Source of the DNA: Trypanosoma brucei
Taxonomy: Eukaryota
Reading direction: 5' to 3'
Assembly (NCBI GenBank): GCA_000002445.1
Contig: CM000208.1
Span: 96,001 to 160,000, forward strand
Length of the DNA: 64,000 nucleotides
Part shown: piece by piece, positions 1,622 to 63,531 of the stretch
Position numbering within the stretch: position 1 is the first letter of the stretch
Layout: every line of letters starts with the position of its first letter
Translations under genes and position numbers: made by a program
The notes under the pieces: generated by a model
Databases searched by the model: none
What the model saw: only the letters and a program-made list of their open reading frames with translations
Told to the model about the DNA's origin: nothing

Positions 1622-3382
1622 CGGGGAAAGGATGTGAAAGGAGTGAAGAGGGTTAAAACTGATGTTAGAGAGGAAGTGAAAAGTTTCGTATTTCTCCCTC
1701 TTCTTTTCTGGTGTTGGATGGGTGTTTTACCCTCCTTTTTTTCAGTTGATTAATTTCTTTTGATGCGCAAGCAAACGACTCAGTGGTGTGTTGTGTTTCT
1801 GTCCTTGACCCACTTTAGCCTTCACCCCCAAAAAAGTCGTGTGGCCCACTGGCGCCGCTCTCTCTTTTTTTTTTTTCGTCTTGTGGCGAGGTGAGACAAT
1901 ACCGGTCAAACGAGGCGGGAGTCATGAGGAGAATAAATAGGTTTTGATGTATTTTTGCGATGTGTTTTGGGAGTGTGACTAAAACCTGTTTTGACGGCAT
2001 TTGCTCGCGTGCCTTCTATTAATTTAATGTTTGTATACATATGTATCTGCGTATATGTTTGTGTGTGTGTGTGTGTGTTTGAGAAAACATGTAATGTGAA
2101 ATCTCGTCTTTTTCTTTACTTTTACCCTTTACTTGTTTTTTGTTTTCCTCCTTGTATACCTTTCATAATCATGGTATTTATCTATAAACTTGTGTTCCGC
2201 GGAAGTTTCTCCATTGGGTAAAGGGGTGGATGGAGATATTTTGCTTTTCTGTGTGAACTCATGACAGTATGGAAGGAATTTTCAACCATGCTTTTGTTTT
2301 GTTTTACAGAGAGGGATCAAACGAGAAGAGGGGTGGAAATAATTCAACATGTGACGAAGAGGAGAGGGAGGTGACAAAAAGCAAGAAAACAAAACGGGAA
2401 ATATCGACGGTATGGTGGATTCTGCTCTTTTGGTTTCGCATGCATTTGCTACAAGAAGGTTGCAATACACATCTCTCTTTATTTCTCTCTCTTTCTTTCG
2501 TTTTCTTTATTCTCCTTCTGTGGTGATGGCGCAACTGCACAATTTGTGACGGTATTGAAGTGGAGGAACGGGTGGAGTGATGTGACGTGATGGAATAGGA
2601 ACGGGAAGGAATGATGGGGAGCCCCAAATGATAATATTGGTAACAATTCAGTTAACCATCCTTTCCAAGCTGATTTGGATTACTTGATTTCTTCTTTTCC
2701 TTTTTTAAATGTCCCTCTTTCTCATTTCTTCTCTTTTTTTTTTCTTCTTTTACCCAACTGTTGATTGCTTGCTGAGCTTTCCTTTTCCCCAAATGTAAGG
2801 GCATTTGATCCTTTTGTAAGCTGATATTTTAAGTGTCGTTATGCTTGGACTTGCAGTGGCAGTGTTGTTGTTATTGTTGTTATTGTTGCTCATGAAAAGC
2901 AACGGATAGAAGGCAGTCGCGTGTACCCCCTGTTACTACTACCGCTGCAGTTACGTGTGGCCCCCTCCGAGTTTGACTTAATATTACAGTGTCAATGACT
3001 CAAAAAAAAAATAATAATATAAAAATTATATATATATGATAATGAAAATAATGCGGCGCTTCTAACCTGTTTCATCTTCCACATTTTCTTTCTGTCCCAT
3101 TTTTTTTCCTCTTCTCTTATTGTTGTAAACGTTACTTTCGAGGAATTTGTTTCGTTTGAGGTTATCGCCTATTTTGGCTAGTGGTAACCTCCATCGCAAC
3201 TGTGACTTAGTCATAACACTGCACTCAAGAAAGTAAAAGAGCATAAAGTAGAGAGCAGGAAAATAGACTGATTAGAAAAAGGTGGGCACAGGAGGAAGTA
3301 TCAAAATATTTGATTCCTCTACACTGTGTAGTTTCATATCTAATTTGCCATTTGAGTGTGGTGCCACACAACTTACTTTATT

Positions 3383-4294
3383 ATGTTTAGTCAGAAGCCG
3401 CCACCACCGCGTTACGTTCTCAACGTTGACACGGGTAAATGGAGCAAACAGGTTGTGGTACCTGAAACCAAACCCAAAGAGTCGATGCCAAATATTCAAA
3501 GCACACTTGACCTTCTGCTCTACCACGCCATGCACACCGCCAAAACCCAGTTGGAGGAAGAGGGAAAACGGACTCGAGTGGTGCCCGATGTTGCAGGTCA
3601 GATTGCAACTTTTGAGGCTCGTCACAACATTCACGCAAATGCACTGCGCTCCTTCTCTCTTTCCAGACGAGGTGGTTGCTGTTCAAATCCTGTTGTTGGA
3701 CTTCTTTGCGGTATTCCACTGTACGATGTCTATACTGCGCTCACTAAAAGAAAAGGGGAGGAATGGGATACGTATGGAGGGGAGCCCGACCCAAATAAAC
3801 TCCTGCGTTTAAGTTTAGATGAACTGTTTGATGTATGCACGAGCCTGGTAAAACCAATGGTAAACTATAGTTATGTTCGAGACATGTTTACCATGCTTCC
3901 ATCTGATGGTGAGGATGATGACAACAGCGTACCTCTATCGTGTTTTTTTTCGTTCCTCGTAGAAAACGCATTTCATCCAACGTTGAACCGAAACGTGGAA
4001 GCATTGTTCCGTGCATTTGACCCCGAGGGTACCGGAGTCATATCCGAGGCTACACTTGCTTCTCCTGTGCTCAACGCTTTTGCAGAACTGAATCTTTTTG
4101 GACATTTGCGCGGGGAATGGGAAAGGATGGCTTCAACGCTGGAGATTGTGGGAAATATTGATTACCGCATCGTAGACAATATTCGGCTTCTTACGCCGGA
4201 GGCCACTCGTGCGGTTTTGTGTAGTTCCCCCATTTTGTATGACGCGATGGAAAATGTCGATTTAGACGGCTCTAAGCTTAAGGTGTCTTCGTGA
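3383..4294 (+). CDS. hypothetical protein with a degenerate EF-hand-like loop
   Basis: The ORF-track start at 3356 is GTG, and the first ATG is at 3383 (MFSQKPPPP...). The 303-aa ORF contains FRAFDPEGTGVISEATL, which resembles an EF-hand loop but is non-canonical. It sits in the + strand gene array. Confidence 0.5.
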   Translation: MFSQKPPPPRYVLNVDTGKWSKQVVVPETKPKESMPNIQSTLDLLLYHAMHTAKTQLEEEGKRTRVVPDVAGQIATFEARHNIHANALRSFSLSRRGGCCSNPVVGLLCGIPLYDVYTALTKRKGEEWDTYGGEPDPNKLLRLSLDELFDVCTSLVKPMVNYSYVRDMFTMLPSDGEDDDNSVPLSCFFSFLVENAFHPTLNRNVEALFRAFDPEGTGVISEATLASPVLNAFAELNLFGHLRGEWERMASTLEIVGNIDYRIVDNIRLLTPEATRAVLCSSPILYDAMENVDLDGSKLKVSS

Positions 4295-4835
4295 GTTATT
4301 GCAAGTTACGCAGCCCTTGTGCATCAATATCTTGTGGTAAAAGAAAGGGGAGGGGAACTCGTGTAGCGATATCTCGCATTTCATTCACCTTTTGTTTCTT
4401 GCCAGTTATGCCTGTGCCGTGTTCTCGCTTCCTGTTGGATTTGTTGTGTTTGCACTTATATCCTACCCTTCTGGCGTCGTCTTTGTTCGTTAGTGGGTAC
4501 TGTTGGCAAGGGAATGTTTGCAGTTGTAATGTATGTGTTATGTCGTAATGTGAAATGTTTACTTCTCCCGCTCGTGGGGTAATAAAATTTCAAGTTCCCT
4601 CTATTTCAATTGCGTGATAGCCTCGTGCTTGCGAGCCGATGTTCGTTGAACTAAGGGAAAAAACATCCCCACAATGGCGTATCTTCTCTACCTCGTACTT
4701 TTCCCTTTTCCTCTATTCTTTGGGGTTGTATTACATGTCACTTTTCTCCCACGGGTGCATGTATGTGCATAATATAGAAAAAAAAACTGTATTTTAAAAA
4801 AAGAGAAAAAAATTGAGAGTGGCTGGAGGAGCGGG

Positions 4836-5375
4836 ATGGAAGTTGCTGCGGTTGCGAGTGCTCCCTCGGCTGAGGAAGTGAGCGAACTGAGGAAGCATAC
4901 GCGTCTGTCAGAGGCTCAAATCACTCGACTGCATGAGCGTTTCACGGCACTTGACCGGTGTGGAAAAGGTTTGATTTCCCCGAGTGATTTTCAGTCAATA
5001 GCATCCGTGGCGTCCAACCCTCTTCTTAGTCGAGTGCTTACTGTGGTTAGCAGTAGTGGTGATGGAAACATTAGTTTTGTTGATTTTGCGAAGGCATTCG
5101 CTGTTTTTCTCCCACAGACCGATAGGCAGGAAAAGCTGCGCTTTACGTATATGATGTATGATATCGACGGTGATGGCAAAATCAGTAACAGCGATCTCAT
5201 GGAGGCTCTCAAAATGATGGTAGGCCCGAACTTAACAGATGTGCAGCTGCAACAGATAGTAGACAAAACATTTATTGAGGTGGACTTCAACCGGGACGGT
5301 TTTATCACGTTTAGTGATTTTGAGAAGCTTTCACTTCCCATCAGTCTGGATAATGCCCATGTTCTGCAGTTTTAA
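4836..5375 (+). CDS. calcineurin B (PP2B regulatory subunit), EF-hand protein
   Basis: The 179-aa protein starts at an ATG. It carries the EF-hands YDIDGDGKISNSDLMEALKMMVG and VDFNRDGFITFSDFEK. The stretch NPLLSRVL...QEKLRFTYMMYD...LTDVQLQQIVDKT lines up closely with my recollection of calcineurin B (NPLVQRVI...KEQKLRFAFRIYD...LKDTQLQQIVDKT). Confidence 0.85.
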   Translation: MEVAAVASAPSAEEVSELRKHTRLSEAQITRLHERFTALDRCGKGLISPSDFQSIASVASNPLLSRVLTVVSSSGDGNISFVDFAKAFAVFLPQTDRQEKLRFTYMMYDIDGDGKISNSDLMEALKMMVGPNLTDVQLQQIVDKTFIEVDFNRDGFITFSDFEKLSLPISLDNAHVLQF

Positions 5376-5983
5376 ACAAATGGAAGCGTGTGGTATCACA
5401 TGAACCTGACATAACCTAATGCAAATAATTTACACGCATATGTAAAAGGCCGCGGTTTATGTGGTGTTTGTGCCTGCGGGTTCCATTATCCCCCCCGCGC
5501 TTCACACCCTTGGGGGGGGGGGGAATGAAAGTTTTGTGTTGCATTTGCTGCCCAGTAGCAGCTGTTGGTGCATTTCCTTAGCTCGCCTGTGCACCGTGGT
5601 CAGATATGCGCTGAAAGACCTGGAAAGTTTTTGCTGGGGAGGGGTGTTAGACGTGTGGAATATCTATGTGTCAAGGGCCGGATGAACGTTTCCTTTTACT
5701 TTTTCGTTTTCCTCCGTCGTTTATCATCCCTAATCCCATTTTGCTCGTTTTATTCGTCTTACCCCCCTCTCTCTATTTGCGTACCTTTGAAACTGTGTCG
5801 TCGCGCAGCATTTTTGTTTCTTCTGCTCCTCTTTTTTTTTTTCTTTTGGCCCGTTCCCCTTCTTTTTATGTAATTTACAACGGTTTGTTTTCTGTTTTCT
5901 TCTAATTTTGATTATTATTATTCACTTTGGTTATTTTGCATACGCACTGTGGCGAGAGGAGTCTTTGAAGTGGAAATACTACT

Positions 5984-7012
5984 ATGCTCCGCCGTAGTGA
6001 TTTACTGCTGAAAAAGGGTTGGACTCATAATCCCGGTCGTACACGCCGTGGTGGGAAAAATCTCGCGTGGCGCCCAAAAATGTCGGAACGTACGCTCGAG
6101 CAGTTTGTTCCACTTCACCTCGCATTCCCTCGAAGGCACCCAAACAGTTGGCAAGAGAGGCAGTTCCACCTCCTCGGTTACGTCAAATGGCCAAAAGAAA
6201 TTGGTTTCTACAATGCTGGTGATAACTTTGAGCTTACACCACAAGCAGCATATCGTATTTACAAACAAAACTGCGACGAGACCTTTTGGACGAGGTTGCA
6301 TAATGAAAAGACAATTATTCATTTACTTCCACTGGTCGAGCAGGATCCTGGGACCAACATGGTGCTCGTTGATGATATTTTTCGTCACCACCTTAAGCGT
6401 TTTGGTGCCGATCATTATATTTACAACGCGGTGATGCAAGCGGCTGCATTTGCAAAAGATTTCCCCCGCTGCGAGCAATTATTAGCAGAGATGCGCGGCC
6501 TTGGCCTTGAGCCAAACGCACAATCTTACGTCAACATGATGTTGGGTGCGCGCCTTACAGGAAAACCTCGGGATCAGGCGGAGGCTTTTTTCCGTGAAGG
6601 TATCAAAACAGGTGCCATTAGTGCTGTAATGCGTCTCGACACTGAATTTCAAATGTGGATGGACCAATTGGAGCGACTCGGTTCCTTCAAAGCGAAGGTC
6701 GGATACCTGTCAGTTAATGAGGAAGGCGCTTCTCCGATGCCTCGTGACATGTGGGCATTATGGGGTTGGCATCGTACCGAGGCGAAATTTATTAGTCGTA
6801 AGCAGATGATTTCTGAGCAGGTACAAAACCGTGTGAGGAGTGGCAAAGAGTTGGTGGGAACAGTTTATCAAAAAGCTCGTCGGCAGCCATGGGCAAAATA
6901 TAATGGGATGTTTCCGTATGATTACAACGGCCCTGCACAAAGACCCGCGGCTTCCTTCGTGGACGCTCCAACTCCAACACATAACGCAGAGGTTTGTGGA
7001 ACTGCATATTAG
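5984..7012 (+). CDS. PPR-like (pentatricopeptide-repeat) protein, probably mitochondrial
   Basis: The 342-aa ORF has a basic N-terminus (MLRRSDLLLKKGW...) consistent with a mitochondrial presequence. Two adjacent ~35-aa helical-hairpin motifs fit the PPR pattern: YNAVMQAAAFAKDFPRCEQLLAEMRGLGLEPN followed by AQSYVNMMLGARLTGKPRDQAEAFFREGIKTG. Confidence 0.5.
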   Translation: MLRRSDLLLKKGWTHNPGRTRRGGKNLAWRPKMSERTLEQFVPLHLAFPRRHPNSWQERQFHLLGYVKWPKEIGFYNAGDNFELTPQAAYRIYKQNCDETFWTRLHNEKTIIHLLPLVEQDPGTNMVLVDDIFRHHLKRFGADHYIYNAVMQAAAFAKDFPRCEQLLAEMRGLGLEPNAQSYVNMMLGARLTGKPRDQAEAFFREGIKTGAISAVMRLDTEFQMWMDQLERLGSFKAKVGYLSVNEEGASPMPRDMWALWGWHRTEAKFISRKQMISEQVQNRVRSGKELVGTVYQKARRQPWAKYNGMFPYDYNGPAQRPAASFVDAPTPTHNAEVCGTAY

Positions 7013-7548
7013 TGAGGTGTGTTTGCTCTCTTACGGAGGGAAGGGGGGGGGGGGTTTCATGGGACGTTTTAACCAGGCGGTAGCGTTTTAGTTTGGAAGG
7101 ATGCGAAATGGCAATGTGCTACAGCTCCTAAGGTTATATTTTGTGCATGGATGTGCAATCTTGTGCCGTGTTTGGTCCCTTGGATTTCTTCTCTTTTTGG
7201 TTGGTGGTATCGTTGCATGGACACATGCGCTTTTACTTTTTTTGTTACCTTCAGTGCACGTAATGTACGTGGTCGATTCGCTTAAGCCATCCGCATGCGA
7301 ATATGTATTATTGACTTACTGTTGTTTACCCTTCCTCTGGTTGCAAGATAATACTGTCAAAAGCTGCACGCTGCTGTACCGTAAGCAATAGTGCTTTAGG
7401 AGGGCCGGTAAAAAGCAAAAAAAACAAAAAAAAACAGTCCGTTATATATATAGAGAGAGGGAGAGGGGGAGAGAGAAATATAAAAAAGAAATATTGAAGC
7501 ACTCATTTACCTTACGGAGTTACACACATCAAAGTTCAAGGAAACGAC

Positions 7549-28044: not shown

Positions 28045-28080
<36 letters not shown>

Positions 28081-36335: not shown

Positions 36336-37296
36336 AGAATCTCCAACAGATCACTCAAGTGAGTGATACATGAGGTAAAACAACAAAGGGGAGGAAGAAG
36401 CACCAGAAGGGAGTTGAATGGAGGAGCGAATGGAGTCCAACATTCATGAATGCGGGACGATATATATATATATATTAATGCATATAAACATGTACGCGTG
36501 AGAGCAGCGCTTGAAGGGAACGAAAGAAATTAAAAAAATTACGGATGTTTGAATGACAGATCCCTTTACTCTGAGAAGGTTCATCATTCAGCAACGCCGT
36601 TTCTTTTCCTTTATCTTCTCTATTCTATGGATTCTCCTGTGCCATGTGGGTTCGCGTTATAGTTGTATGTGTTGTCCCATTCTATTCTCCCTTTTTTTTA
36701 GTCTTAACGGGCACTAAAAGTGAGGGCAGTTAAAAATGTAGGCACGAGCAGGGTGCGGGCGAGGGACTTCCACTAACAAATCGTCACATTTCTCGTTTGT
36801 CTGCATATCTTTCTTTTTCTTGTTTTTTTTGTATTTCACAGGTTGTCACAACAGAAAGCGTTTCGTTGGTGTGTGTGTGTGTGTTTGTGTGTGTGCACGT
36901 TAGCGGTGTTGTTTACTTAGTCCCTATTTCGCTACCATCTATCAGTTTTGGTTCTGTTTTTTTTCTTTTAGTTTTCGTGCAAAAGTCTTTGTTATTGCCT
37001 TTTATTGAAATGTTGCTTTACTGTCAATGTTCCCCGTTCTTCTGCCTTTGTGCTTATCCTATTCTATCGCCGTTGATATGCGGCATGCAGTAGGTTTTCC
37101 TCCTTGAAGAAGGTGAAGGCAAGGGACCATTATTATTTTTTTTTTGTATTGCGGCAGAAGGTTGCGGAAGCTACTGTCAGTTCAACGATACTCAAGCGGT
37201 TACGTGTAAGCAAACAAAGGAGGGTGTTCAGGACACTATAAATTACTTCACAGTTTATTTACCTTTAAATCGTAATTGTCTTCACGTTTGGGTAAA

Positions 37297-38487
37297 ATGC
37301 AGGGCAGTTGGTCGGTTTTGAAGAAGAACTGTTCTAACTTCTTCCCTGGTTTACTCGCCTTTGCCCAACAGACGCAAGAGGCATACGGCATTTGGCTCCG
37401 AATTTATAACCGTCAACAAAAATATGGCCCAACAGACTTCGTTGAGCAGAGCGAAACATTTTCACCCGACTACCATAAACGCTTCCACTCACAAGACAAG
37501 AACATGTGGGTTGACAAGGAGCTCTGCACGGAAGTCTCCCAGAAGGAAGTGGCGCGTCTGATGACGTACAAACTTGACATGTGGCGTATGGCTCATTGCG
37601 CTGGTGCGTTATTGGCCACGGGTGGTTATGCCATTCCCTTCGGACTCTTTTGGCTCGCAAATGATACGTGGGTTCCATCATCTTTTAACCTTACTGGAGA
37701 GGAACTCCGGGCGTGGCGTGAAGCTCAGGACCTTTACCGTTACCGCAGTGCGCCGTCATATCTTACGGATACGAAATGGCACTTCGATTTTCATGCGTAT
37801 CCATGGAATGAAACACAGGAACGTGCCTGGGATGACTTGTTTGAGAAGAATGATGTTCGACGTGACCCTAAAGTGGTACGCCCCGCCGCTGAGATGTATG
37901 ACGGCTTCATCAAGTTTGAGTTGATTCGTCGCAAGTCTCTTCGTCATCTTTGCAGGAGCATGAACATTCCCACCTTTCCCATGCTCGCCCGCCTTTGCAA
38001 TGGTACACGGGTGCGTGACTACTGGAATTTGGCATGGTGTGAAGATTACATGGTCATAACGCAGCGACTGCACGAGTCCATGACGGATGAGGAACTATAT
38101 GACTATGCGTGGCGTCGGTATCTTGCCCCTTATGATAAGAACCTCAATCGAGAACAGCTTATGGAGCGTGTAGAGGATTATTTTGAGTTCCTTGGCCCTG
38201 ACTTCGTTGCCCATGGAAAGGCACCGAATCTTGTCATTTTAACCAATTATGTCCTTGGTTATTATAACGACCCCGCTTATCTGGAGGGAGACATATCGGA
38301 ACTGGACAAAAATGATTACGACCACTTAGCGAGTTGGGGGAAAGATGCGTTTCTGCGCCGACTCGAATTTGAAAACGGGCCTCTAAGAGATCAGGTGGAG
38401 GCGCACACACAACGTTTGTTGGCGGAGCGTGCAGCGATTGCAAAGGGTGATAATGCAGCCGCAGTGGAGGGCCGACACACAGCTTAG
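37297..38487 (+). CDS. hypothetical protein with one internal hydrophobic segment
   Basis: The ORF-track start at 37276 is TTG, and the first ATG is at 37297 (MQGSWSVLKKN...). The ORF is about 396 aa. A TM-like segment is MAHCAGALLATGGYAIPFGLFWLA. There is weak LETM1-like resemblance around LRHLCRSMNIPTFPMLARL, too weak to call. Confidence 0.55.
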   Translation: MQGSWSVLKKNCSNFFPGLLAFAQQTQEAYGIWLRIYNRQQKYGPTDFVEQSETFSPDYHKRFHSQDKNMWVDKELCTEVSQKEVARLMTYKLDMWRMAHCAGALLATGGYAIPFGLFWLANDTWVPSSFNLTGEELRAWREAQDLYRYRSAPSYLTDTKWHFDFHAYPWNETQERAWDDLFEKNDVRRDPKVVRPAAEMYDGFIKFELIRRKSLRHLCRSMNIPTFPMLARLCNGTRVRDYWNLAWCEDYMVITQRLHESMTDEELYDYAWRRYLAPYDKNLNREQLMERVEDYFEFLGPDFVAHGKAPNLVILTNYVLGYYNDPAYLEGDISELDKNDYDHLASWGKDAFLRRLEFENGPLRDQVEAHTQRLLAERAAIAKGDNAAAVEGRHTA

Positions 38488-39496
38488 TTACTGCGATATC
38501 AGCACGTTTTTGTATTGTGTTGTGTTGTTGTGAATTTGAGTGTGGAGTGGACTGTGTAGGAAGAAATAGTAGTAGGTGGTTTCACGCGCACATCAGATTA
38601 GGGAACGTAAAAAAAAAAAAGGAGAGACAGATCTGGGAATGAAAGAAAGGAGGGGGATGTTAGGACGCTTGTGTACCTTTCTCGTATATGAAGTCATGTG
38701 CAAGCTACGCTGATAGAGCAATAACATGGTGACAGAGTGAAAGGCAAAAGGCACTTGCAGAAGGGGGAATTTTTGTTTTCGTATTTGATATTAACTCTCC
38801 ATGTGTTGTCGCAGCGACTGTTTTCGCATATGACATAATTGCGCACATGACAGCATGCATCAGCAGTTTTGGTAGCATCTGCCTCATGTCAATGTTTGAC
38901 AGTCAAAGGTTGAAATCATGTCATGATGGAGGTGGTTCAACACCTCAAGGGGACTTTTTTTTTTTGAATATTTTGGCGATGCCTTCATGACGTTTATGCG
39001 GTGCAAGAAGCAGGTTCCCTTTATTCTTTTTACTTTCCAGATCTTCATCGGAATGTCCAATCGAAGTTTAGTGTGAATGAATGACTTTATATTTGTCTGT
39101 GTCCTTTTTGTTGTTTTGTGGTCTCCCATCTGAAACTCATTTTATTTTACTCTTTCTTTTATCTCATTATGATTTTACTCCCTCTGGAGGACAAAATCAC
39201 GTTTATCACCTCTTTTTTCTTTGCCCATTTAGGTAGTAGAGGTCACTAGGTCCTAGTTTTCTTTTTTAATTCCACTTCGCCACGTTACTCCAATCAAGCA
39301 AAGAGAAAAGGTAAAAAGAAGGGGAGTGAGTTGAGTCAGACAAGAAAAGAATACGTGGGTCGACGCAGTGTGATAATATAAAGGCGTGAAGCAGGGGGAT
39401 AAAAGTAAAGGAAAAGAGAAGTGGGAACGGTATCCTATTTTCACGCACCGTATACCATAGTGAGTTGCTAACACCGTATTTGATTACTTACGGAAT

Positions 39497-41563
39497 ATGG
39501 GCAATGAACCTGATGAAGCCCGAGTGGGCGGGGTGCCTGAAATGCCAAAGGTATATGAAAAGAAGCGCACCTGCACAGATATTGTGTTCCTGTGCCTTTT
39601 CTTCGTTATGTTGTTGGCTTTCGCTGCTTTAGGCATCATTGCTTTTGTGGACGGCGAAGCGAAGGATTCCCTGAATGGTCGTGACAGAACTGGGCGTTAT
39701 TGTGGTAGCGGCTCTCCTCCAGAGGGTTTCGCTGAAAGTATACCTCAGGGTGCACCTTTTCAAAGTAAAGTCTGGGGTGAGAACAAATATCTGTGGTATC
39801 CGTTCCCATTGAAGCAAACGGCAATGTCGTTGAACCCACTGCTGTACCTCAGTTTGGGTCTGTGCGTGCAGCAGTGCCCAATGGCAAATGAGAGGTTATT
39901 GGAGCGTCTTTTGAAAAACCCCTCTTCTGTAACTGAAGAGGAGAAGAATACCATGAAGGTGTACTCGTATGGAGGCAGTTCAGTTGTGGAGAGTGGCATG
40001 CAACCGGTCAATCATGCGTTTCCGGTTTACCACACGGGGCCCATTTTGCGGCGGTGTCTTCCCACCATCACTCAGCCACCCTCCGTGCGCGATCTATTGA
40101 TGACTTCAGAGTATAGTCAGAGGGTTTACGCATTTGTGTTGAAGGGTGTACTGGAGGTGAAGGCAAGTTGGAAGGTTTTTCTGTGCGCCGCCGCTGCATG
40201 TACGCTCCTGTGCTTCATTTTCTTGTTTTTGGTGCGTTTCCTAATCAGCTTCGTCGTGTGGGCGTCCATTATTGCATGCTTCCTTTTGCTGTTAAGCGGT
40301 GGGTGCATATGCATTCAGCTTTACCTTAACGACGGTCACTTTATGAACCTCCATTTAGACGTCACGAAGTACTCTGTTCTTTTGCTGTGCGTTGCTATTG
40401 GGCTTTGGATCGGGGCGCTGGTGTATGTTTTTGTCATTATTGGAGCATGCCCGAGGATCCGCCTGGTATGCGCCTTAGCGAAAATCGCATCGCGTGTTGT
40501 TGATAATGCGCCATCAACTGTGCTGTTACCGATTCTAATGAACGTGGCGATTTTGTGTCTGCTGGTGTGGAGTATTCTCGTTGCTCTTGGCTTGTACAAT
40601 GCTCGGAGAAAAACTGGGAAGATTTCGTTCGTGCCCGTAACCGACGCTATTGGCATTAATGACGGTTCATTCAAGGGAATCGGTGAGACAAAATTCTACC
40701 AGGGGGTTGTGGAAGGCGTGGAGCACCGCTACGCATTGGTTTACCTCTTATTTGGAGAGTTGTTTGCCTTCCTGTGGTGCGTATCATTCCTCAACGCCGT
40801 GTCCTTTACATCAATTTCTTTCGTCTCGACATTTTGGTATTTTTCGAACCTTAATGGTGGTAAGAAGAGGGTACCATTTTTCGGGGTGCTGAGAGCGTTT
40901 GTATGGACAGTGTTTTATCATGCAGGAACGCTGGCGCTGGGTTCTCTTCTAATTGCTATTCTTCAGATCGTTCGCATATTACTTGTTTATGCGGCAGAAA
41001 AGGCAGAAGAGGCAGTGGACAGACATGACTTAATCCAATGCTTGCACTGTTACTTGCAGTATGCTCTCCTCTGTTTCGAGAACTTTGTGAGTAGTATCAA
41101 TAAGAACATTTACGTCGTTGTTTGTCTGACCTCCGGGAGCTTTTGCACATCAGCCTGCACCGGCCTCTCAGTGCTTAAGGGTCATTCCTCTGATTTGTTC
41201 CTCATCTCGTGGATGGTGTTATGCGTAAAGATTTTGGGAAAACTGTTTGTTACTGTCGGAACTGTCGTGACTTCATATTTACTTTTTAAGCACACAACTT
41301 TGGCACCGGGTGTGGATTCGATGGTAATGCCTCTCATTTTAATTGGTATCGGCGCATATTTCCTCAGCGGTCCCTTTTTTGATGTTTTCGATTCCTCCAC
41401 ACTCGCCCTATTGATTTGTTACTGCTACGATCACCACATCAACCAATCGGTTGGAATATTTTACGTTCCTGCGGAACTTGAGCACCAACTGAGTGACTAC
41501 TCTCAGAAGAAAAAGTTGCGCCGCCTGAAGAACCAACAAGCGGCCGCACATAGGAGAGGTTAA
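39497..41563 (+). CDS. choline transporter-like protein (CTL/SLC44 family, PF04515-type)
   Basis: The 688-aa multi-pass membrane protein has a CTL-type N-terminus (KKRTCTDIVFLCLFFVMLLAFAALGIIAF) and large extracellular Cys-containing loops. The conserved C-terminal CTL block reads ...FYHAGTLALGSLLIAILQIVRILLVYAAEKAEE...LHCYLQYALLCFENFVSSINKNIYVVVCLTSGSFCTSA. Confidence 0.85.
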   Translation: MGNEPDEARVGGVPEMPKVYEKKRTCTDIVFLCLFFVMLLAFAALGIIAFVDGEAKDSLNGRDRTGRYCGSGSPPEGFAESIPQGAPFQSKVWGENKYLWYPFPLKQTAMSLNPLLYLSLGLCVQQCPMANERLLERLLKNPSSVTEEEKNTMKVYSYGGSSVVESGMQPVNHAFPVYHTGPILRRCLPTITQPPSVRDLLMTSEYSQRVYAFVLKGVLEVKASWKVFLCAAAACTLLCFIFLFLVRFLISFVVWASIIACFLLLLSGGCICIQLYLNDGHFMNLHLDVTKYSVLLLCVAIGLWIGALVYVFVIIGACPRIRLVCALAKIASRVVDNAPSTVLLPILMNVAILCLLVWSILVALGLYNARRKTGKISFVPVTDAIGINDGSFKGIGETKFYQGVVEGVEHRYALVYLLFGELFAFLWCVSFLNAVSFTSISFVSTFWYFSNLNGGKKRVPFFGVLRAFVWTVFYHAGTLALGSLLIAILQIVRILLVYAAEKAEEAVDRHDLIQCLHCYLQYALLCFENFVSSINKNIYVVVCLTSGSFCTSACTGLSVLKGHSSDLFLISWMVLCVKILGKLFVTVGTVVTSYLLFKHTTLAPGVDSMVMPLILIGIGAYFLSGPFFDVFDSSTLALLICYCYDHHINQSVGIFYVPAELEHQLSDYSQKKKLRRLKNQQAAAHRRG

Positions 41564-43384
41564 AATGAAAAAAAAATGAGAGGGTTGTGTGAGTATATTG
41601 ATATGAATTTAATCGTTAAGGCATGTTATGTTGTGTTATATTATTTGCATGCATACTTTGCTCTGCATCATATAAAGGGGTCACGTATTTTGCTGGCTGT
41701 TTTCCATTTTTTTTTTTCCATTTCCATTTCCCTTTTCTTTTTCGCTTTTTTTTCTTCTTCCATTTGGGCGTGCCACTTAATATTTGTTTCCTCTGTTCCT
41801 CCCCTACTGTTTTTCATAATGCTTTTTTTTTGTTGTTTACTCGACCGAATTTTCTTGTATTCCTTCCTTCTGTCCCATCTGTTGCTGCACAATATACTGT
41901 CTCTTTGCTATTTAAAAAAAAAAATCGGTGAGGTGGGGAACCTCCTTTAAAAACGTTTTCGAGCAGATGCGGATTTCTTCTTTTTTTTTTCTTTTGTTAC
42001 AATGTGTTTAATAATTTTTTGAAAAACAAACAAACAAACAAACAAAACTTACCCTTTTATAACTTCTTCATAACCGCTGCGGTGCTTCTCGGGCTCATAA
42101 GCCATTACTTTCTTTCTCTTTCAGAGTTGATGCTTTCTCTTTCTTTCTTTCTCTTTACCGCATGTAAAGGGAGGGTTAATGCATCCCAATAAGAAAAGTA
42201 AATTTTTTTAGGCTTATGTTTTATGTTTTGTGTTTTCGAAAAATATTTGTATGTTTTATTGGTGTATCAAATAGAGATGACTTTTGTGAAATAGTCGATA
42301 ACGGCAGTGATAACGATAAACGGAATTTTTTTTCTTTTTGACTTGAGGAGTGGTCTCATCCTTTTGGTTGTTATTGACGCTTGTTTTTTTTTCTTTCTTC
42401 CATTTCTTCATTCTTTTTTTTCTTCTTTGTTTTTCATATCCTTTTTTTTGTTTTGCAATTATTTACATTTATTCCTCCCTTCCGTATCTGTGGGGGAACA
42501 TTTTTGTTGTTGCCTAATTTCTTTTTTTTTGTTCCTTTTTCTTAAGTCGTTTCATTTCATAATGTTTTTTTTGCTTTTTTTTTGTGTGTTTGTGTTTGCA
42601 GTACCATATGGTGCTGCATTTATATTTTTATGTGAGTGAGTGTGTGTGTGTGTGTGCCATCAGTGTGTTTTTTTTTTTTTGGGGGGAGGTATTCTGCACA
42701 AAATCGAAAGAAAGGAAGAAAAAACGAAAAGGAAAGAAAAAAAAAAGAATGAAAAAAAATTAAGAAAAAAAACATCTCCAGATATTTTGCAAGCATATGC
42801 GGTGGCTTGCTGAAACGCATCTCTTCAGCATAATAAAGATGAGTTGTGTTGTACCTCACTTTTGTTTCTGTTTTTAAGTTCCTTAAGGCCGCTTACTTTT
42901 TTTGTTTTTGTTTTTGTTTTTGTTTTTTTTGTGGCGGCTTCTTGTCGTCTGCTGATGTTGAATTGTCTTCCGTTTTTTTTTGTTGTTGTATTTTTACTGT
43001 ACCTACATTTGTTGTGTTCACAAATATCAGGTGTTATTTTGTCCCACATTACTATGAAACTCGCTTCTTTATTATTGTTGTTTTTACCATTCAGTTGCTT
43101 CTCTTAAATATATATATATATATATAATTAAAAGAAATATGCGCTGCGTCTCATCTTTTCAATACGTTTTTCCCTCTTTTTTTTCCCCTCTTCCTCTACT
43201 CTCATTTTCCTCCTTCATAGTTTTAATTGTTTCATAGTTTTAAAAGGTGTAGTTTAAGGAAAAGATGTGCACATGTAACAAATGTTAGCGCTTCTGGTGT
43301 CTTTTTTTTTTTAAATTGCCATCATCACTATTATTGTTATAGTCATTATTAATCCTATTATTGCTTACATATTCCCCCCCCCCC

Positions 43385-43525
43385 CCACAAACACACACAC
43401 ACACTTTTTCTGCTACATTCTTTTTTTTTAAAAAAATTCGAGGGTGCGGTTGTACGTGCCACTGGAGGAGGAGGAAAAACAAAAAAAGAATGTAGCAGAA
43501 AAAGTGTGTGTGTGTGTTTGTGGAA
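43385..43525. repeat. perfect inverted repeat (hairpin): ~45-nt arms at 43385-43429 and 43481-43525 with a ~51-nt loop, preceded by a C16 tract (43374-43389)
   Basis: Arm 1 is ccacaaacacacacacacactttttctgctacattcttttttttt. Arm 2 is aaaaaaagaatgtagcagaaaaagtgtgtgtgtgtgtttgtgg, its exact reverse complement. This was checked base by base. It lies about 410 nt upstream of the SUB2 ATG. Confidence 0.9.
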
Positions 43526-43932
43526 AAGAAAGGATACTGATGAGTGCAAGAAAAAAAAGAGAGAGTTGGTTAAGTGTATTAAATTTTAATTAGTTTTGTT
43601 AATGATCGTGACTGCCTTTATTTTCTTCTTTTTCTTTCTTACACCTAATTTAATGGTGAGTTGTGCTTTACTCTTTTTTTTTTTTGTGAATTTATTCTTA
43701 CCATTTAATGTTTATATGGCATCAGCATTTTATGTGCCTTCAACATAAAAAATGTGATTTTACTCGCTTTATTGTTATCCATTACACCTTTCCCTCACTT
43801 TCTCCAATACTTTATTTTAAAAATTTTTGACAAATAATATATATTTTAAAATTTTTTCTAGTCATTGACAACAGGTTAGCAACAAGATTTCAAAAAAAAA
43901 AGAAAAGAAAAAGAAGTTAAAGATAAATTAAC

Positions 43933-45243
43933 ATGAGTAGTGGTCTCGCTGACTTTGACGGAGATGATGTGCGGGCGCCAGTTGTGGCTGCGCAACCGCA
44001 TATTGGTGTTGGTCTCGGAACCCACAGTGCCGTTGCTCTCGGCGGTTTCCAAGATTTTTGTCTCAAAAGTGAACTCGCCAACGCCATTCGAGAAAACGGC
44101 TTCGAACATCCCAGTGAAGTGCAGCATCAGGCCCTTCCACAAGCCATGCTCGGTGCAGATATCCTTGCACAGGCAAAGTCTGGTATGGGTAAAACAGCCG
44201 TGTTTGTGTTTGCTTTATTGGAGCAAGTGGAAAAACCAACGGATGGGCAGCGGCCCTTCTGTCAAGCCATCGTCATTGCCCATGCACGCGAGTTGGCATA
44301 TCAAATTGAGCAGGAGTTCAAGCGTTTCAACAAATACTTGCCGCATTGTACCACTGGTGTCTTCTTTGGGGGCGTCCCTGAAGACGAGAACATAAAACAA
44401 CTCAAGAAGGAGGTTCCCGCAATAGTGGTGGCCACACCAGGTCGAATTTGTTCCCTCATTGAGCGAAAAGCTCTCGACGTGTCGCGTGTTAAGTGGTTTG
44501 TTGTTGATGAATTCGATCGCTGCCTAGAGGATGTGAAAATGCGTCGCGATGTGCAGACGGCATTCCTTAAGACACCGAAGGAAAAACAGGTGATGATGTT
44601 CTCAGCCACCATGACGGAGGAGCTGCGGAATGTGGCGAAGAAATTTATGTCGAACCCCACTGAAATCTACGTTGACCAGCGTTCCAAGCTTACACTTCAC
44701 GGGTTGGCGCAATATTACATCAATGTGACGGAGGCACAGAAACTTCGTAAGTTGTGCGACATCCTCGACGCTGTTGAGTTCAATCAAGTCATTATATTCA
44801 CTTCCACTGTTGAGCGCTGTGAGGCTCTCAGCCGTCAGCTGCAGGCTCTTAAGTTTCCCTCCAAGGCGATTCACTCTCGCATGGAGCAGGCGGAGCGGTT
44901 GGTTGTGTATGAGAGCTGCAAAACAAACCAAGCTCGTATCATCGTCGCCACAGACATCTTTGGCCGTGGTGTGGATATTGACCGTATTAATCTTGTTGTA
45001 CAGTTTGATATGGCGTCTGATGCTGACTCGTACCTTCATCGTGTTGGTCGTGCTGGTCGCTTTGGTACGAAGGGACTTACGGTGGCATTCCTCACTGAAG
45101 AGGAAAAGGAAATTAAGCGTGAGAACCGTAAATATACTGACCAGGGTATCATGAAGGAAGTGCAGGAGCGATTTGAGATGCAGGTCCAGGAACTTACTGA
45201 CATCGCCACACAACTGAACCAGAGCCAGTATATGAACCAATAG
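43933..45243 (+). CDS. SUB2: DEAD-box ATP-dependent RNA helicase Sub2/UAP56 (mRNA export/TREX)
   Basis: Helicase motifs read directly are Q-motif/motif I AQAKSGMGKTAVFV and motif II VVDEFDRCLE..., which matches the UAP56 DECD-type sequence [20 protein letters not shown]. Further motifs are SAT (MMFSATM), motif V/VI (IVATDIFGRGVDI; HRVGRAGRFGTKG) and the UAP56-like C-terminus. The length is 436 aa. Confidence 0.92.
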   Translation: MSSGLADFDGDDVRAPVVAAQPHIGVGLGTHSAVALGGFQDFCLKSELANAIRENGFEHPSEVQHQALPQAMLGADILAQAKSGMGKTAVFVFALLEQVEKPTDGQRPFCQAIVIAHARELAYQIEQEFKRFNKYLPHCTTGVFFGGVPEDENIKQLKKEVPAIVVATPGRICSLIERKALDVSRVKWFVVDEFDRCLEDVKMRRDVQTAFLKTPKEKQVMMFSATMTEELRNVAKKFMSNPTEIYVDQRSKLTLHGLAQYYINVTEAQKLRKLCDILDAVEFNQVIIFTSTVERCEALSRQLQALKFPSKAIHSRMEQAERLVVYESCKTNQARIIVATDIFGRGVDIDRINLVVQFDMASDADSYLHRVGRAGRFGTKGLTVAFLTEEEKEIKRENRKYTDQGIMKEVQERFEMQVQELTDIATQLNQSQYMNQ

Positions 45244-49250: not shown

Positions 49251-50229
49251 CGAATATAGAAATGTTGAACGTGTGAATTAACTTCTCACACACCCCTTCC
49301 TTACCCCACCATTTTGCATGTTAAACCCTACATGTGTGGTCGTCCCCCTACTCTCCACCCCCCCCCCCATGCGTTCCCGCATGTCTTTTGTGGTGCATTT
49401 TTCTGCCATCTTTTATCAATTCCAAGAAATCCATTGTCCGATATATGTTGAAACATCAATCTTTTATTATTATTATTATGCTGATGATTCGGTGGGGTGG
49501 GGGACAGTTGTTGCCACTGTCATTGTTTTAACTACGGGCACTTTTCATACTCTTTTCTTTTTCGTTTGTTTAATTGTTTGCTCGTTTGTTTCGGGGGTGG
49601 GAGAGGTTAGGACTTATAATACAAAAAGAAAGCAGGAAGCTGTGGGAAATCGAGAAGGACGTCCGAAAGAAAAAAAGGGGGGTTGTAGTCATGTTGTCAC
49701 GAGGCGCAAATGTTCGATGGGAAAGCATGATATTATCGTTTATTGAGTTTTACCTGCACATCCCTATACTTGTGTGCATGTGTTTTATTACCTGTTGCCT
49801 TTACCTTTCCTACCAGTGTTCTTTTCTTTAGTGATGTACTGTATTGTTATTATTATCATTATTTATAATAGAGGCGTGATCTTTTGTGTGTTTGCTCTTC
49901 CTCCGCCCCGGCTGTTTTGTAAGGGGCGACGCTTTTCATCATTTTTTTTTTGCAAATGATTTCGTGTCGTGTAAGGAAAAAGTATCACTTCCGCAAACCA
50001 GTCGAGCAGGTGGTCTGGAGCACATGGCGACAAGTAGTAATTATTCGATGCAAATGTTTTTTTTTCTTGTGGCTTTGTGCGCTGGAAAGCGGTTGTTTCC
50101 TCTTCCGCAAACACTGTTATGTGTACTTATATATAAATAAATACATATTTATGTGTTGCGCTTTGTTTTGTCTATATATGTATGTGTGCGCGTATGCCAC
50201 GTAAAAAAAAAAAATAGGGATAAGAGCAA

Positions 50230-62622: not shown

Positions 62623-63531
62623 CGAATATGTCCACCATGTTTTGGACGGTTTCATTCATTTTGATTTCATCGCTGCTATGTGGATAAGCAGCCTTTCCGC
62701 TAGGGTTCACTGGATTTTTTTTGAAGGTGGTTTCTTCCTGTTTTCGTTGGGGCGTTTGTGCCTATGAGGGCGGGGTGTTACCCGGAAGTTTATGACCACT
62801 CGACCGCAAGTTCTGTCCACGCACCGTTACGAAGGTTTGTCACATCGCAGACACACGTACATATATATATATATATGTTATTTATCGTCTGTGAGAAAGT
62901 TTGGAGGAAGTAACCCTCAATCTCCTCCGTTATTTATATCCAACCCGTGAGGGTGCGCCTGAGCATATATATATATATATATATGTCCCTTCCACTATTT
63001 TTTTTTTTAAAGGGGTCAAATCTTCACTTCTCTTAACATATTGTCTGAACAGAATCCTATAGAAGGGTGCTTGGGCACCTCAAGGTAGTTTTTGTTGAGA
63101 AAAGAAAAAAGTAGTAGAGGATTTTTGGCTCGCCGAACCTGTGTGCAAGTTGTCGTTTGACTTGAGTGATACTTAGTTGGTGAGGTTGCTTGTCTTCTGT
63201 TGAGGAAACCCGGTCCGACTTGGTTTCAGCTAGTTAAGGGTGGAGGGGAGTAAAGCAACAACAACGGGAGGAGCAAAAGGTGAAGGCACAAGAAGAGCAT
63301 CCACCGAGGTAAGTTGACACTGTCTACACAATTACATATAACTTTATTTGTGTGTCAGCGAGCGAAAGTTGACGTATTTGAGGTGAACTGCTCAGCAAGC
63401 AAGGAGGTGGGTTTCCAGAAAACTTATTCAGTGTGGCTGGTAACTTTGACAAATATAAAGGGACGCCATATCTCCACATAGCGGAGAGGAAGGACGGTTA
63501 TCCGCTGAAGTTCAGGTTAAAAAGGTAGAGA

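What the first reader, a model, noticed from the sequence alone, without database searches (positions are those of the whole stretch)
43374..43525. Perfect 45-bp inverted repeat (long hairpin) with C16 tract upstream of SUB2
Two ~45-nt arms (43385-43429 and 43481-43525) are exact reverse complements across (CA)7 and a unique 16-mer (tttttctgctacattc) plus T/A runs. They are separated by a ~51-nt loop and immediately preceded by 16 consecutive C. A perfect palindrome this long is unlikely by chance in 64 kb and is not a simple microsatellite. In a kinetoplastid pre-mRNA it would form a very stable stem-loop in the SUB2 upstream UTR or intergenic region. It could be a cis-regulatory RNA structure, a Dicer substrate (T. 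brucei has RNAi), or a replication/recombination-fragile palindrome.
Basis: seen in the sequence. Interest (0 to 1): 0.6.

Follow-up and report, generated by a model that had tools for sequence, protein, structure and literature searches.

The report
Young hairpin ending a trypanosome 3'UTR
A real, perfect 43-bp inverted repeat in Trypanosoma brucei sits at the very end of the upstream gene's 3'UTR, not in the SUB2 leader; it is found only in the T. brucei group and is most likely a recent copying accident with no shown function.

Summary
The arms are 43385-43427 and 43481-43523: 43 nt rather than 45, 100% complementary, with a 53-nt spacer. The C run is 13, not 16. It is far beyond chance. 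Markov simulations give arms of 17 nt at most, and it is the most stable 171-nt fold in the 64 kb (-84 kcal/mol, z = -12.5).

The window is T. brucei TREU927 chromosome 10, at v4 coordinate minus 96000. Published poly(A) mapping puts the predominant poly(A) site of the upstream choline-transporter-like gene (Tb10.70.7750) at window 43550. That is 27 nt past the hairpin. So the hairpin closes that gene's roughly 2-kb 3'UTR and lies outside the SUB2 mRNA.

It is present in T. b. gambiense and two T. equiperdum assemblies. There the CA/GT, C and T/A tracts change length independently in the two arms, leaving stems of 37-40 bp. It is absent from the syntenic spacer of T. vivax, T. conorhini, T. 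grayi and T. theileri.

It is single-copy with no target-site duplication. It has no Rfam match at threshold and is not among published T. brucei siRNA loci.

Best reading: a young local inverted duplication of the template-switch type, carried passively in a 3'UTR. A role in 3'-end formation or dicing is not excluded but has no support.

The parts
39497..41563 (+). ORF of the upstream choline-transporter-like gene (Tb10.70.7750; 688 aa, PF04515). Its mRNA carries the hairpin.
   Evidence: One search lists the ORF. One search gives Pfam PF04515 for the orthologues. One search shows 100% identity to T. b. brucei TREU927 EAN77483.1. Searches give poly(A) site minus 3'UTR length = 137563, which is window 41563.
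41564..43550 (+). 3'UTR of Tb10.70.7750: 1987 nt to the predominant poly(A) site, 31% GC, pyrimidine-rich and low in complexity.
   Evidence: Kolev 2010 Table S13. The offset of 96000 was checked on three genes. No separate novel transcript is listed there.
43374..43386 (+). C13 homopolymer abutting the left arm and overlapping it by 2 nt. Its length varies from 8 to 13 among assemblies.
43385..43427 (+). Left arm, 43 nt: CCACAAAC(AC)6 TTTTT CTGCTACATTC T7. It is pyrimidine-rich and resembles a polypyrimidine tract.
43428..43480 (+). 53-nt spacer (the loop), with its own small predicted hairpin at about 43437-43467. The central block 43438-43480 is unique in the window and invariant in all four assemblies; the T/A run at its 5' edge varies in length.
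43481..43523 (+). Right arm, 43 nt, the exact reverse complement of the left arm: A7 GAATGTAGCAG AAAAA (GT)7 TTGTGG.
43550..43558 (+). Predominant poly(A) addition site of Tb10.70.7750 (43550), followed by a genomic A8 run.
   Evidence: Kolev 2010 Table S13: predominant site 139550, averaged site 139413, dispersion 143.6. Sequence.
43612..43725 (+). Polypyrimidine tracts at 43612-43646 and 43661-43687, with the first AG after them at 43724-43725. This is the predicted trans-splice acceptor region of SUB2. It is an inference and was not mapped here.
   Evidence: The 176-nt distance from the poly(A) site fits the median splice-site-to-upstream-poly(A) distance of 142 nt in Kolev 2010.
43933..45243 (+). 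SUB2/UAP56 DEAD-box helicase ORF (Tb927.10.540, also Tb10.70.7730).

Best explanation
The feature is a 139-bp local inverted duplication: two 43-nt arms around a 53-nt unique spacer. It lies in the low-complexity spacer between the choline-transporter-like gene Tb10.70.7750 and SUB2 on T. brucei chromosome 10.

Origin (inferred). One arm was copied as the reverse complement of the other in a single replication template-switch or fold-back repair event. This happened in the lineage leading to Trypanozoon, after its split from T. vivax; T. congolense could not be tested. Since then the arms have drifted apart by ordinary microsatellite and homopolymer slippage.

Expression. The region is transcribed on the + strand as part of the Pol II polycistron. 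After coupled polyadenylation and trans-splicing, the hairpin stays in the upstream gene's mRNA as the last 3'UTR element, 27 nt before the predominant poly(A) site. This placement is shown by published mapping. That the hairpin is left out of the SUB2 mRNA is inferred.

Structure and effect. As RNA it should fold into a 37-43-bp perfect or near-perfect stem. The most likely functional status is a passenger structure with no dedicated role. Any effect would fall on 3'-end processing or stability of the transporter mRNA, not on SUB2.
For: - Real and non-random.
- Locus identity: the window proteins equal TREU927 EAN77483.1 and EAN77484.1.
- Position: subtracting the 3'UTR length from the poly(A) coordinate in Kolev 2010 Table S13 gives the stop codons of three consecutive window ORFs (38487, 41563, 45243) with a single offset of 96000. 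This places the predominant poly(A) site of Tb10.70.7750 at 43550.
- No other transcript: no novel transcript is listed in the spacer, and neither gene is in the alternative-processing table.
- Lineage-restricted: the repeat is present in T. b. gambiense DAL972, T. b. equiperdum and T. equiperdum OVI. No comparable repeat or outlier fold exists in the syntenic CTL-SUB2 spacer of T. vivax, T. conorhini, T. grayi or T. theileri.
- No sign that perfect pairing is maintained: the C run, CA/GT and T/A tracts differ independently between arms. Two assemblies have lost the ACAAAC that pairs with the GTTTGT kept in every right arm. Stems there are 37-40 bp at 97-98% and folds are -63 to -73 kcal/mol.
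- Not a general poly(A)-site feature: the 3' ends of seven other genes in the window fold at -24 to -47 kcal/mol.
- Mechanistic precedent: template switching creates perfect stems of 30-55 bases in one event (PMC8794818, PMC10710096).
- Copying signature: (AC)n of 6 or more units occurs once on the + strand, in the left arm, against eight (GT)n. That is the pattern expected if one arm is an inverted copy.
Against: - No outgroup spacer can be aligned, so the state before duplication and the switch points cannot be reconstructed. The template-switch origin rests on analogy.
- The polarity of copying is ambiguous. The GT/AC asymmetry makes the right arm look native, while pyrimidine richness makes the left arm look native.
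- The Trypanozoon genomes are too similar for neutrality to be tested. The unique 16-mer and the loop are invariant, as is most flanking sequence.
- The hairpin ends 27 nt before the main poly(A) site, and all four assemblies keep a stem of at least 37 bp. Both facts are also compatible with a function.
- The poly(A) data come from procyclic cells of another strain mapped onto TREU927. The site abuts a genomic A8, so its exact position could be off by a few nt or affected by A-run mapping.
- The averaged poly(A) site lies 137 nt upstream of the predominant one, so isoforms lacking part or all of the hairpin also exist.
Confidence: 0.6

Rival explanations
1. The hairpin is a functional cis-element of the transporter mRNA's 3' end. 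A stable terminal stem-loop just upstream of the poly(A) site would fix the position of cleavage and polyadenylation, or protect or expose the 3'UTR end to decay factors or dsRNA-binding proteins.
For: It ends 27 nt before the predominant poly(A) site. It is by far the strongest local structure in 64 kb. A stem of at least 37 bp is kept in all four Trypanozoon assemblies despite slippage. The averaged poly(A) site is 137 nt upstream of the predominant one, so sites on both sides of or inside the hairpin may be in use.
Against: It is absent from the same spacer in four other Trypanosoma species. The 3' ends of the other seven genes in the window have no such structure. Poly(A) position in trypanosomes is already explained by distance to the downstream polypyrimidine tract, and here the 176-nt spacing is ordinary. 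The outer stem shows uncompensated decay in two assemblies.
Confidence: 0.18
2. The hairpin is an endogenous short-hairpin Dicer substrate. TbDCL1 or TbDCL2 would cut the 43-bp perfect duplex, yielding about 24-nt siRNAs and removing the poly(A) tail. That would down-regulate the transporter mRNA.
For: The stem is a perfect 43-bp duplex, long enough for one Dicer product. T. brucei has active RNAi, and its known inverted repeats all give siRNAs. Generic miRNA-precursor models score 30-51 bits on structure alone.
Against: The AGO1-IP small-RNA survey lists only inverted repeats of 422 bp or more, and nothing at chr10 139.4 kb in the files held. Two studies found no miRNAs in T. brucei. All Rfam hits are far below the gathering score and occur on both strands. 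The mRNA carrying the hairpin is the predominant isoform, with its poly(A) site downstream of the stem. This argues against efficient dicing.
Confidence: 0.07
3. The right arm acts as an antisense mask. It would sequester the left arm, which looks like a strong polypyrimidine tract followed by AG at 43441-43442. That would suppress a cryptic trans-splice acceptor and the premature polyadenylation coupled to it.
For: By the Kolev definition, 43392-43429 is a 38-nt polypyrimidine tract with an AG 12 nt downstream (definition). The whole tract lies inside the duplex.
Against: The same 3'UTR holds about 25 other polypyrimidine-like tracts of 18 nt or more, each followed by an AG and none masked by a hairpin. 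Neither gene is listed as alternatively processed. The left arm emerges about 96 nt before its partner during transcription.
Confidence: 0.06
4. The feature matters at the DNA level, as a cruciform or hairpin-forming palindrome that stalls replication or promotes recombination.
For: The single-stranded DNA fold is -51.6 kcal/mol, z = -12. Length changes cluster in and beside the arms.
Against: The 53-nt spacer strongly disfavours cruciform extrusion (established knowledge on palindrome instability). Four assemblies keep the repeat, and every difference is ordinary microsatellite or homopolymer slippage. There is no deletion or rearrangement centred on it.
Confidence: 0.04
5. It is a miniature inverted-repeat (foldback) transposable element.
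For: It has the general architecture: terminal inverted repeats of 43 bp around a short unique core, 139 bp in total.
Against: The flanks (CCCCC and AAAAG) show no target-site duplication. The arm core and the loop are single-copy in the 64 kb. Fourteen metagenome matches to the 20-mer are isolated chance hits with no inverted partner. DNA transposons are not known in trypanosomatids (own knowledge).
Confidence: 0.01

Closest known systems
Hairpins created by replication template-switch mutations (Monttinen & Loytynoja 2022, PMC8794818; Monttinen et al. 2023, PMC10710096)
   Same: A lineage-specific, perfect reverse-complement copy of adjacent sequence. The stem length of 43 falls within the 30-55-base range those studies use. 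It sits inside a host transcript and arises in one step rather than by gradual compensatory change.
   Different: The ancestral state could not be reconstructed here, so the switch points are not shown. The arms are partly low-complexity (CA/GT and T/A runs), a class those studies filtered out. No small-RNA product is known.
Long inverted-repeat siRNA loci of T. brucei, IR1-IR7 (Tschudi et al. 2012, PMC3447711)
   Same: Near-identical inverted repeats in the same genome, transcribed by Pol II and able to form fold-back dsRNA.
   Different: Those repeats are 422 bp to 10 kb per arm, and all yield AGO1-bound siRNAs. This one is 43 bp, was below that survey's size range and is not among its listed loci.
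miRNA or short-hairpin RNA precursors (Rfam MIR530, MIR6445, mir-3149 and others)
   Same: A single stem-loop of miRNA-precursor size embedded in a Pol II transcript. Rfam models align end to end.
   Different: Scores are 30-51 bits against gathering thresholds of 62-200. Unrelated plant and animal families hit equally, on both strands, so the match reflects structure only. The stem is perfect with no bulges. No miRNAs are known in T. brucei.
Stem-loop regulatory elements in trypanosome 3'UTRs, such as the 16-mer stem-loop of procyclin mRNAs (own knowledge, not tested here)
   Same: An RNA stem-loop located in a 3'UTR of a post-transcriptionally regulated organism.
   Different: The procyclin element is short, conserved among paralogues and experimentally shown to act on expression. 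This hairpin is about three times longer, single-copy, clade-specific and untested.

Membership tests
Template-switch (TSM) generated hairpin | One arm is an exact reverse-complement copy of nearby sequence | tested here: met
   43/43 complementary, 53 nt apart. The length is within the 30-55-base range used for TSM hairpins.
Template-switch (TSM) generated hairpin | The ancestral or outgroup sequence has the source arm but lacks the copy, so that the switch points can be reconstructed | tested here: inconclusive
   Four outgroup spacers lack any such hairpin, but they cannot be aligned with the T. brucei spacer. T. congolense was not obtainable.
T. brucei inverted-repeat siRNA locus (Tschudi 2012) | Long inverted repeat, 422 bp to 10 kb per arm | tested here: not met
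   The arm is 43 nt. The listed loci are IR1-IR7, and the chr10 one lies at 467-478 kb, not 139 kb.
T. brucei inverted-repeat siRNA locus (Tschudi 2012) | 22-25-nt AGO1-bound small RNAs map to the arms and depend on DCL1 or DCL2 | not testable with these tools
   No read data are available. The locus is absent from the supplementary lists held.
miRNA precursor families (Rfam) | Covariance-model score at or above the family gathering threshold | tested here: not met
   The best score is 50.8 bits against a threshold of 85 (MIR530), and all ten miRNA-model hits are sub-threshold. There are no hits at gathering thresholds in the whole window.
MITE / foldback transposon | Target-site duplication flanking the terminal inverted repeats | tested here: not met
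   The flanks are ...CCCCCCCCCCC and AAAAGAAAGG..., with no direct repeat.
MITE / foldback transposon | Multiple dispersed copies | tested here: inconclusive
   It is single-copy in the 64-kb window. Metagenome matches are chance 20-mers with no partner arm. The rest of the T. brucei genome could not be scanned.
Trypanosome trans-splice acceptor signal (polypyrimidine tract plus AG) | Polypyrimidine tract of 7-79 nt followed by AG | tested here: met
   The left arm at 43392-43429 is a 38-nt tract by the Kolev definition, with an AG at 43441-43442.
Trypanosome trans-splice acceptor signal (polypyrimidine tract plus AG) | Mapped spliced-leader addition at that AG | tested here: inconclusive
   The splice-site tables held were cut before chr10. 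Neither gene is in the alternative-processing table. About 25 similar unused tracts lie in the same 3'UTR.
3'UTR element of Tb10.70.7750 mRNA | Lies between the stop codon and the mapped predominant poly(A) site | tested here: met
   Stop codon at 41563, hairpin at 43385-43523, poly(A) site at 43550.

The most novel reading that the evidence does not exclude
The hairpin is the first short-hairpin (miRNA-like or hpRNA-like) Dicer substrate in a trypanosome. It would be born recently by template switching inside a 3'UTR. Dicing of the 43-bp stem, 27 nt from the poly(A) site, would remove the tail from the transporter mRNA. It would also release siRNAs containing (GU)n or (CA)n that could act on other transcripts.
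Probability: 0.07. Interest if true: 0.7.

Novelty: new member of a known kind. Interest (0 to 1): 0.3.

Why it matters
If the passenger reading holds, this is a clean example in a kinetoplastid of how one mutational event creates a perfect, very stable RNA hairpin inside an expressed 3'UTR. It is also a caution that a perfect palindrome near a gene need not belong to that gene's mRNA in a polycistronic genome.

The case is easy to test experimentally. An RNAi-competent cell appears to tolerate a 43-bp perfect duplex 27 nt from the poly(A) tail of the predominant mRNA isoform. That bears on the minimal substrate length of the T. brucei Dicers, and on whether structure near the cleavage site affects the polyadenylation that is coupled to trans-splicing.

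Tried and rejected
1. T. congolense, the nearest outgroup. Its SUB2 (P0122) and transporter (P0143) are known only as protein records with no contig, so the orthologous spacer could not be read.
2. More T. brucei strains through the transporter protein. Exact look-ups of the TREU927 protein returned nothing.
3. Direct spliced-leader site for SUB2. The Kolev splice-site tables were cut before chr10. The Nilsson 2010 supplements lack both genes. The Siegel 2010 and Michaeli 2012 supplements are not held. The Logan contigs L004-L006 stop at an A-run 37-40 nt before the ATG and carry no spliced leader.
4. Rfam. Only sub-threshold generic miRNA hairpin hits were found, and nothing at gathering score in the window. 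No tRNAs were found.
5. Dispersed-repeat or MITE reading. Rejected for lack of a target-site duplication and of other copies.
6. Chance juxtaposition of CA/GT and T/A tracts. Rejected because of the unique 11-16-mer in register and the Markov simulations.
7. A general hairpin-before-poly(A)-site rule. Rejected on the seven other mapped 3' ends in the window.
8. Polypyrimidine-tract masking. Kept only as a weak rival, because the 3'UTR is full of unmasked tracts.
9. Polarity of copying. The evidence conflicts and the question was left open.
10. Literature search for Tb927.10.530. No paper was found, so the upstream gene is named here by its v4 identifier, Tb10.70.7750.
Full report
**The observation**

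Reading 43200-43700 and running the repeat finder confirm a perfect inverted repeat. The arms are 43385-43427 and 43481-43523, 43 nt each and 100% complementary, separated by 53 nt. A base-by-base check shows that pairing stops immediately outside and inside these limits. The C tract is 13 C (43374-43386), not 16, and its last two C are part of the left arm. The arm reads CCACAAAC(AC)6-TTTTT-CTGCTACATTC-T7. The 16-mer TTTTTCTGCTACATTC occurs only at these two places in the window, where 0.05 matches are expected. The central block of the loop is also unique.

**Is it more than chance?**

Yes.
- It is the only perfect inverted repeat longer than 18 nt with a loop of 200 nt or less in the 64 kb. 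The runners-up are (AT)n and A/T runs.
- Sequences simulated from the window with Markov chains of order 1, 3 and 5, which keep the local low complexity, never gave arms longer than 14, 16 and 17 nt.
- As RNA, the + strand 43370-43540 folds at -84.4 kcal/mol against -36.9 +/- 3.8 for dinucleotide shuffles, z = -12.5. The - strand gives -86.1 and single-stranded DNA gives -51.6.
- Sliding a 171-nt window over the whole 64 kb, this is the most stable fold, against a mean of -37.9 and sd of 11.2. The next unrelated window is -67.3, at the start of an ORF.

**Where it is**

The flanking ORFs are a 688-aa choline-transporter-like protein (39497-41563, +) and the SUB2/UAP56 DEAD-box helicase (43933-45243, +). 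Both proteins are 100% identical to T. b. brucei TREU927 entries: EAN77483.1, and EAN77484.1 which is Tb927.10.540.

Kolev et al. 2010 (PMC2936537, Table S13) list averaged and predominant poly(A) sites with 3'UTR lengths in TREU927 v4 coordinates. Subtracting the 3'UTR length from the poly(A) coordinate gives stop codons at:
- 134487 for Tb10.70.7760
- 137563 for Tb10.70.7750
- 141243 for Tb10.70.7730

These equal window stop codons 38487, 41563 and 45243 plus exactly 96000. So the predominant poly(A) site of the transporter gene (139550, 3'UTR 1987 nt) is window 43550. That is 27 nt after the last base of the hairpin and just before a genomic A8.

No novel transcript is listed between 118.5 and 188.7 kb, and neither gene appears in the alternative-processing table. 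The averaged poly(A) site is 137 nt upstream of the predominant one with dispersion 143.6. Minor sites therefore lie upstream, possibly inside or before the hairpin.

Downstream of 43550 come two polypyrimidine tracts (43612-43646 and 43661-43687). The first AG after them is at 43724-43725. That is 176 nt from the poly(A) site, in line with the published median of 142 nt between a splice site and the upstream poly(A) site.

I could not retrieve a mapped spliced-leader site for SUB2. The statement that the hairpin is outside the SUB2 mRNA is therefore an inference from the poly(A) site and the coupling rule. It is strong but not direct.

**Comparison with other genomes**

The exact SUB2 protein led to three further assemblies: T. 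b. equiperdum (L001), T. b. gambiense DAL972 (L002) and T. equiperdum OVI (L003). All carry the repeat at the same place. In the alignment, the unique 16-mer of both arms and the central block of the spacer are invariant. The homopolymer and microsatellite tracts vary, and they do so independently in the two arms:
- C run: 8-13
- (AC)n of the left arm
- (GT)n of the right arm: 7 or 9
- T/A runs

The GTTTGTGG end of the right arm is present in all four assemblies. Its partner CCACAAAC is present only in TREU927 and OVI. The 43-bp perfection is therefore specific to TREU927. The other assemblies have 37-40-bp stems at 97-98% and folds of -63 to -73 kcal/mol. These genomes are too close for conservation of the unique parts to mean anything.

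The syntenic transporter-SUB2 spacers of T. vivax, T. conorhini, T. grayi (which contains an N gap) and T. theileri have no perfect inverted repeat of 12 nt or more other than (TA)n, and no outlier fold. T. cruzi lacks the transporter gene at this locus. T. congolense could not be obtained.

**What it is not**

- Known RNA family: Rfam gives only sub-threshold hits to unrelated plant and animal miRNA-precursor models, on both strands. That is what any perfect hairpin produces. Nothing in the window reaches a gathering score.
- Reported siRNA source: the T. brucei AGO1-IP survey searched the genome for inverted repeats and reports seven, 422 bp to 10 kb long. The chr10 one is at 467-478 kb, and the supplementary lists held do not include this locus. 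Two small-RNA studies found no miRNAs in this organism.
- Transposon: there is no target-site duplication and the element is single-copy in the window. The 14 metagenome contigs that contain the 20-mer have it once, with no inverted partner.
- General poly(A)-site feature: the 170 nt before the predominant poly(A) sites of the seven other mapped genes in the window fold at only -24 to -47 kcal/mol.

**Most likely explanation (confidence 0.6)**

The repeat is a young local inverted duplication. Replication template switching, or fold-back repair, is known to create perfect stems of 30-55 bases in a single event inside host transcripts (PMC8794818, PMC10710096).

One trace of copying survives. 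(GT)n of six or more units occurs eight times on the + strand of the window, while (AC)n occurs once, in the left arm. However, the pyrimidine richness of the left arm fits the sense strand better than the purine-rich right arm does. The polarity of copying is therefore left open.

After its birth the repeat has been eroding by slippage without compensation. It is transcribed with the polycistron and retained at the end of the transporter mRNA's 3'UTR. I find no evidence that it has a dedicated role.

**Rival explanations**

- A 3'-end cis-element for the transporter mRNA (0.18). The 27-nt spacing to the poly(A) site and retention of a stem of at least 37 bp are suggestive. But the spacing of the poly(A) site from the downstream polypyrimidine tract is already ordinary, and nothing similar exists in other species or at other 3' ends.
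- A short-hairpin Dicer substrate (0.07). This is physically plausible but not listed in surveys. It is also hard to reconcile with the hairpin-containing isoform being predominant.
- A mask for the polypyrimidine-like left arm and the AG at 43441-43442 (0.06). This is weakened by about 25 unmasked tracts in the same 3'UTR.
- A DNA-level fragile palindrome (0.04). The 53-nt spacer and its stable presence in four assemblies argue against it.
- A MITE (0.01).

**Verdict**

It is best filed as a new instance of a known kind, a lineage-specific hairpin made by inverted duplication and riding in a UTR. Interest is modest. It would rise sharply only if small-RNA or mutational data showed processing or an effect on 3'-end formation.

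Noticed in passing
L010 (T. cruzi, GCA_003719455.1) 3105-7311, compared with window 37276-45243: In T. cruzi the choline-transporter-like gene is missing between the 395-aa LETM1-like gene and SUB2. T. brucei, T. vivax, T. conorhini, T. grayi and T. theileri all have it there. This is a synteny difference, either a gain or a loss of the gene.
   Followed up: no
window 39497-41563: The transporter protein is only 97% identical between TREU927 and T. b. equiperdum (P0137). The neighbouring SUB2 is 100% identical across Trypanozoon. This membrane protein is unusually polymorphic within the clade.
   Followed up: no
window, + strand: 1606, 2060, 16895, 17081, 29287, 36869, 42640, 43504 versus 43391: There is a strong strand asymmetry of dinucleotide repeats. 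Eight (GT)n tracts of 6 or more units lie on the coding strand against a single (AC)n, which is the left arm of the hairpin.
   Followed up: partly
window 43425-43575: A roughly 150-nt purine-rich island (pyrimidine fraction 0.2-0.38) sits in an otherwise pyrimidine-rich spacer. It contains the right arm and the predominant poly(A) site.
   Followed up: partly
window 42536-42583 / 42722-42769: A second, imperfect low-complexity inverted repeat lies in the same 3'UTR: 48 nt at 71% complementarity in the window, 40 nt at 80% in T. b. gambiense. It is built from T-runs and A-runs.
   Followed up: no
window 5512-5523, 7043-7054, 49358-49368: Long G/C homopolymers besides the C13: two G12 runs and one C11 run.
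   Followed up: no
window 43214-43226 and 43231-43243: A perfect 13-nt direct repeat, TTCATAGTTTTAA, with 17-nt spacing, lies about 150 nt upstream of the hairpin.
   Followed up: no
window 62859-62986 and 28047-28076: (AT)n-based inverted repeats and a (TA)n palindrome. These are the next-longest perfect inverted repeats in the window.
   Followed up: no
window 43661-43685 versus 43408-43429: The SUB2 polypyrimidine tract TTGTGCTTTACTCTTTTTTTTT resembles the inner part of the left arm, TTCTGCTACATTCTTTTTTTTT (82% over 22 nt). This could be chance in T-rich sequence or a trace of an older direct duplication.
   Followed up: no
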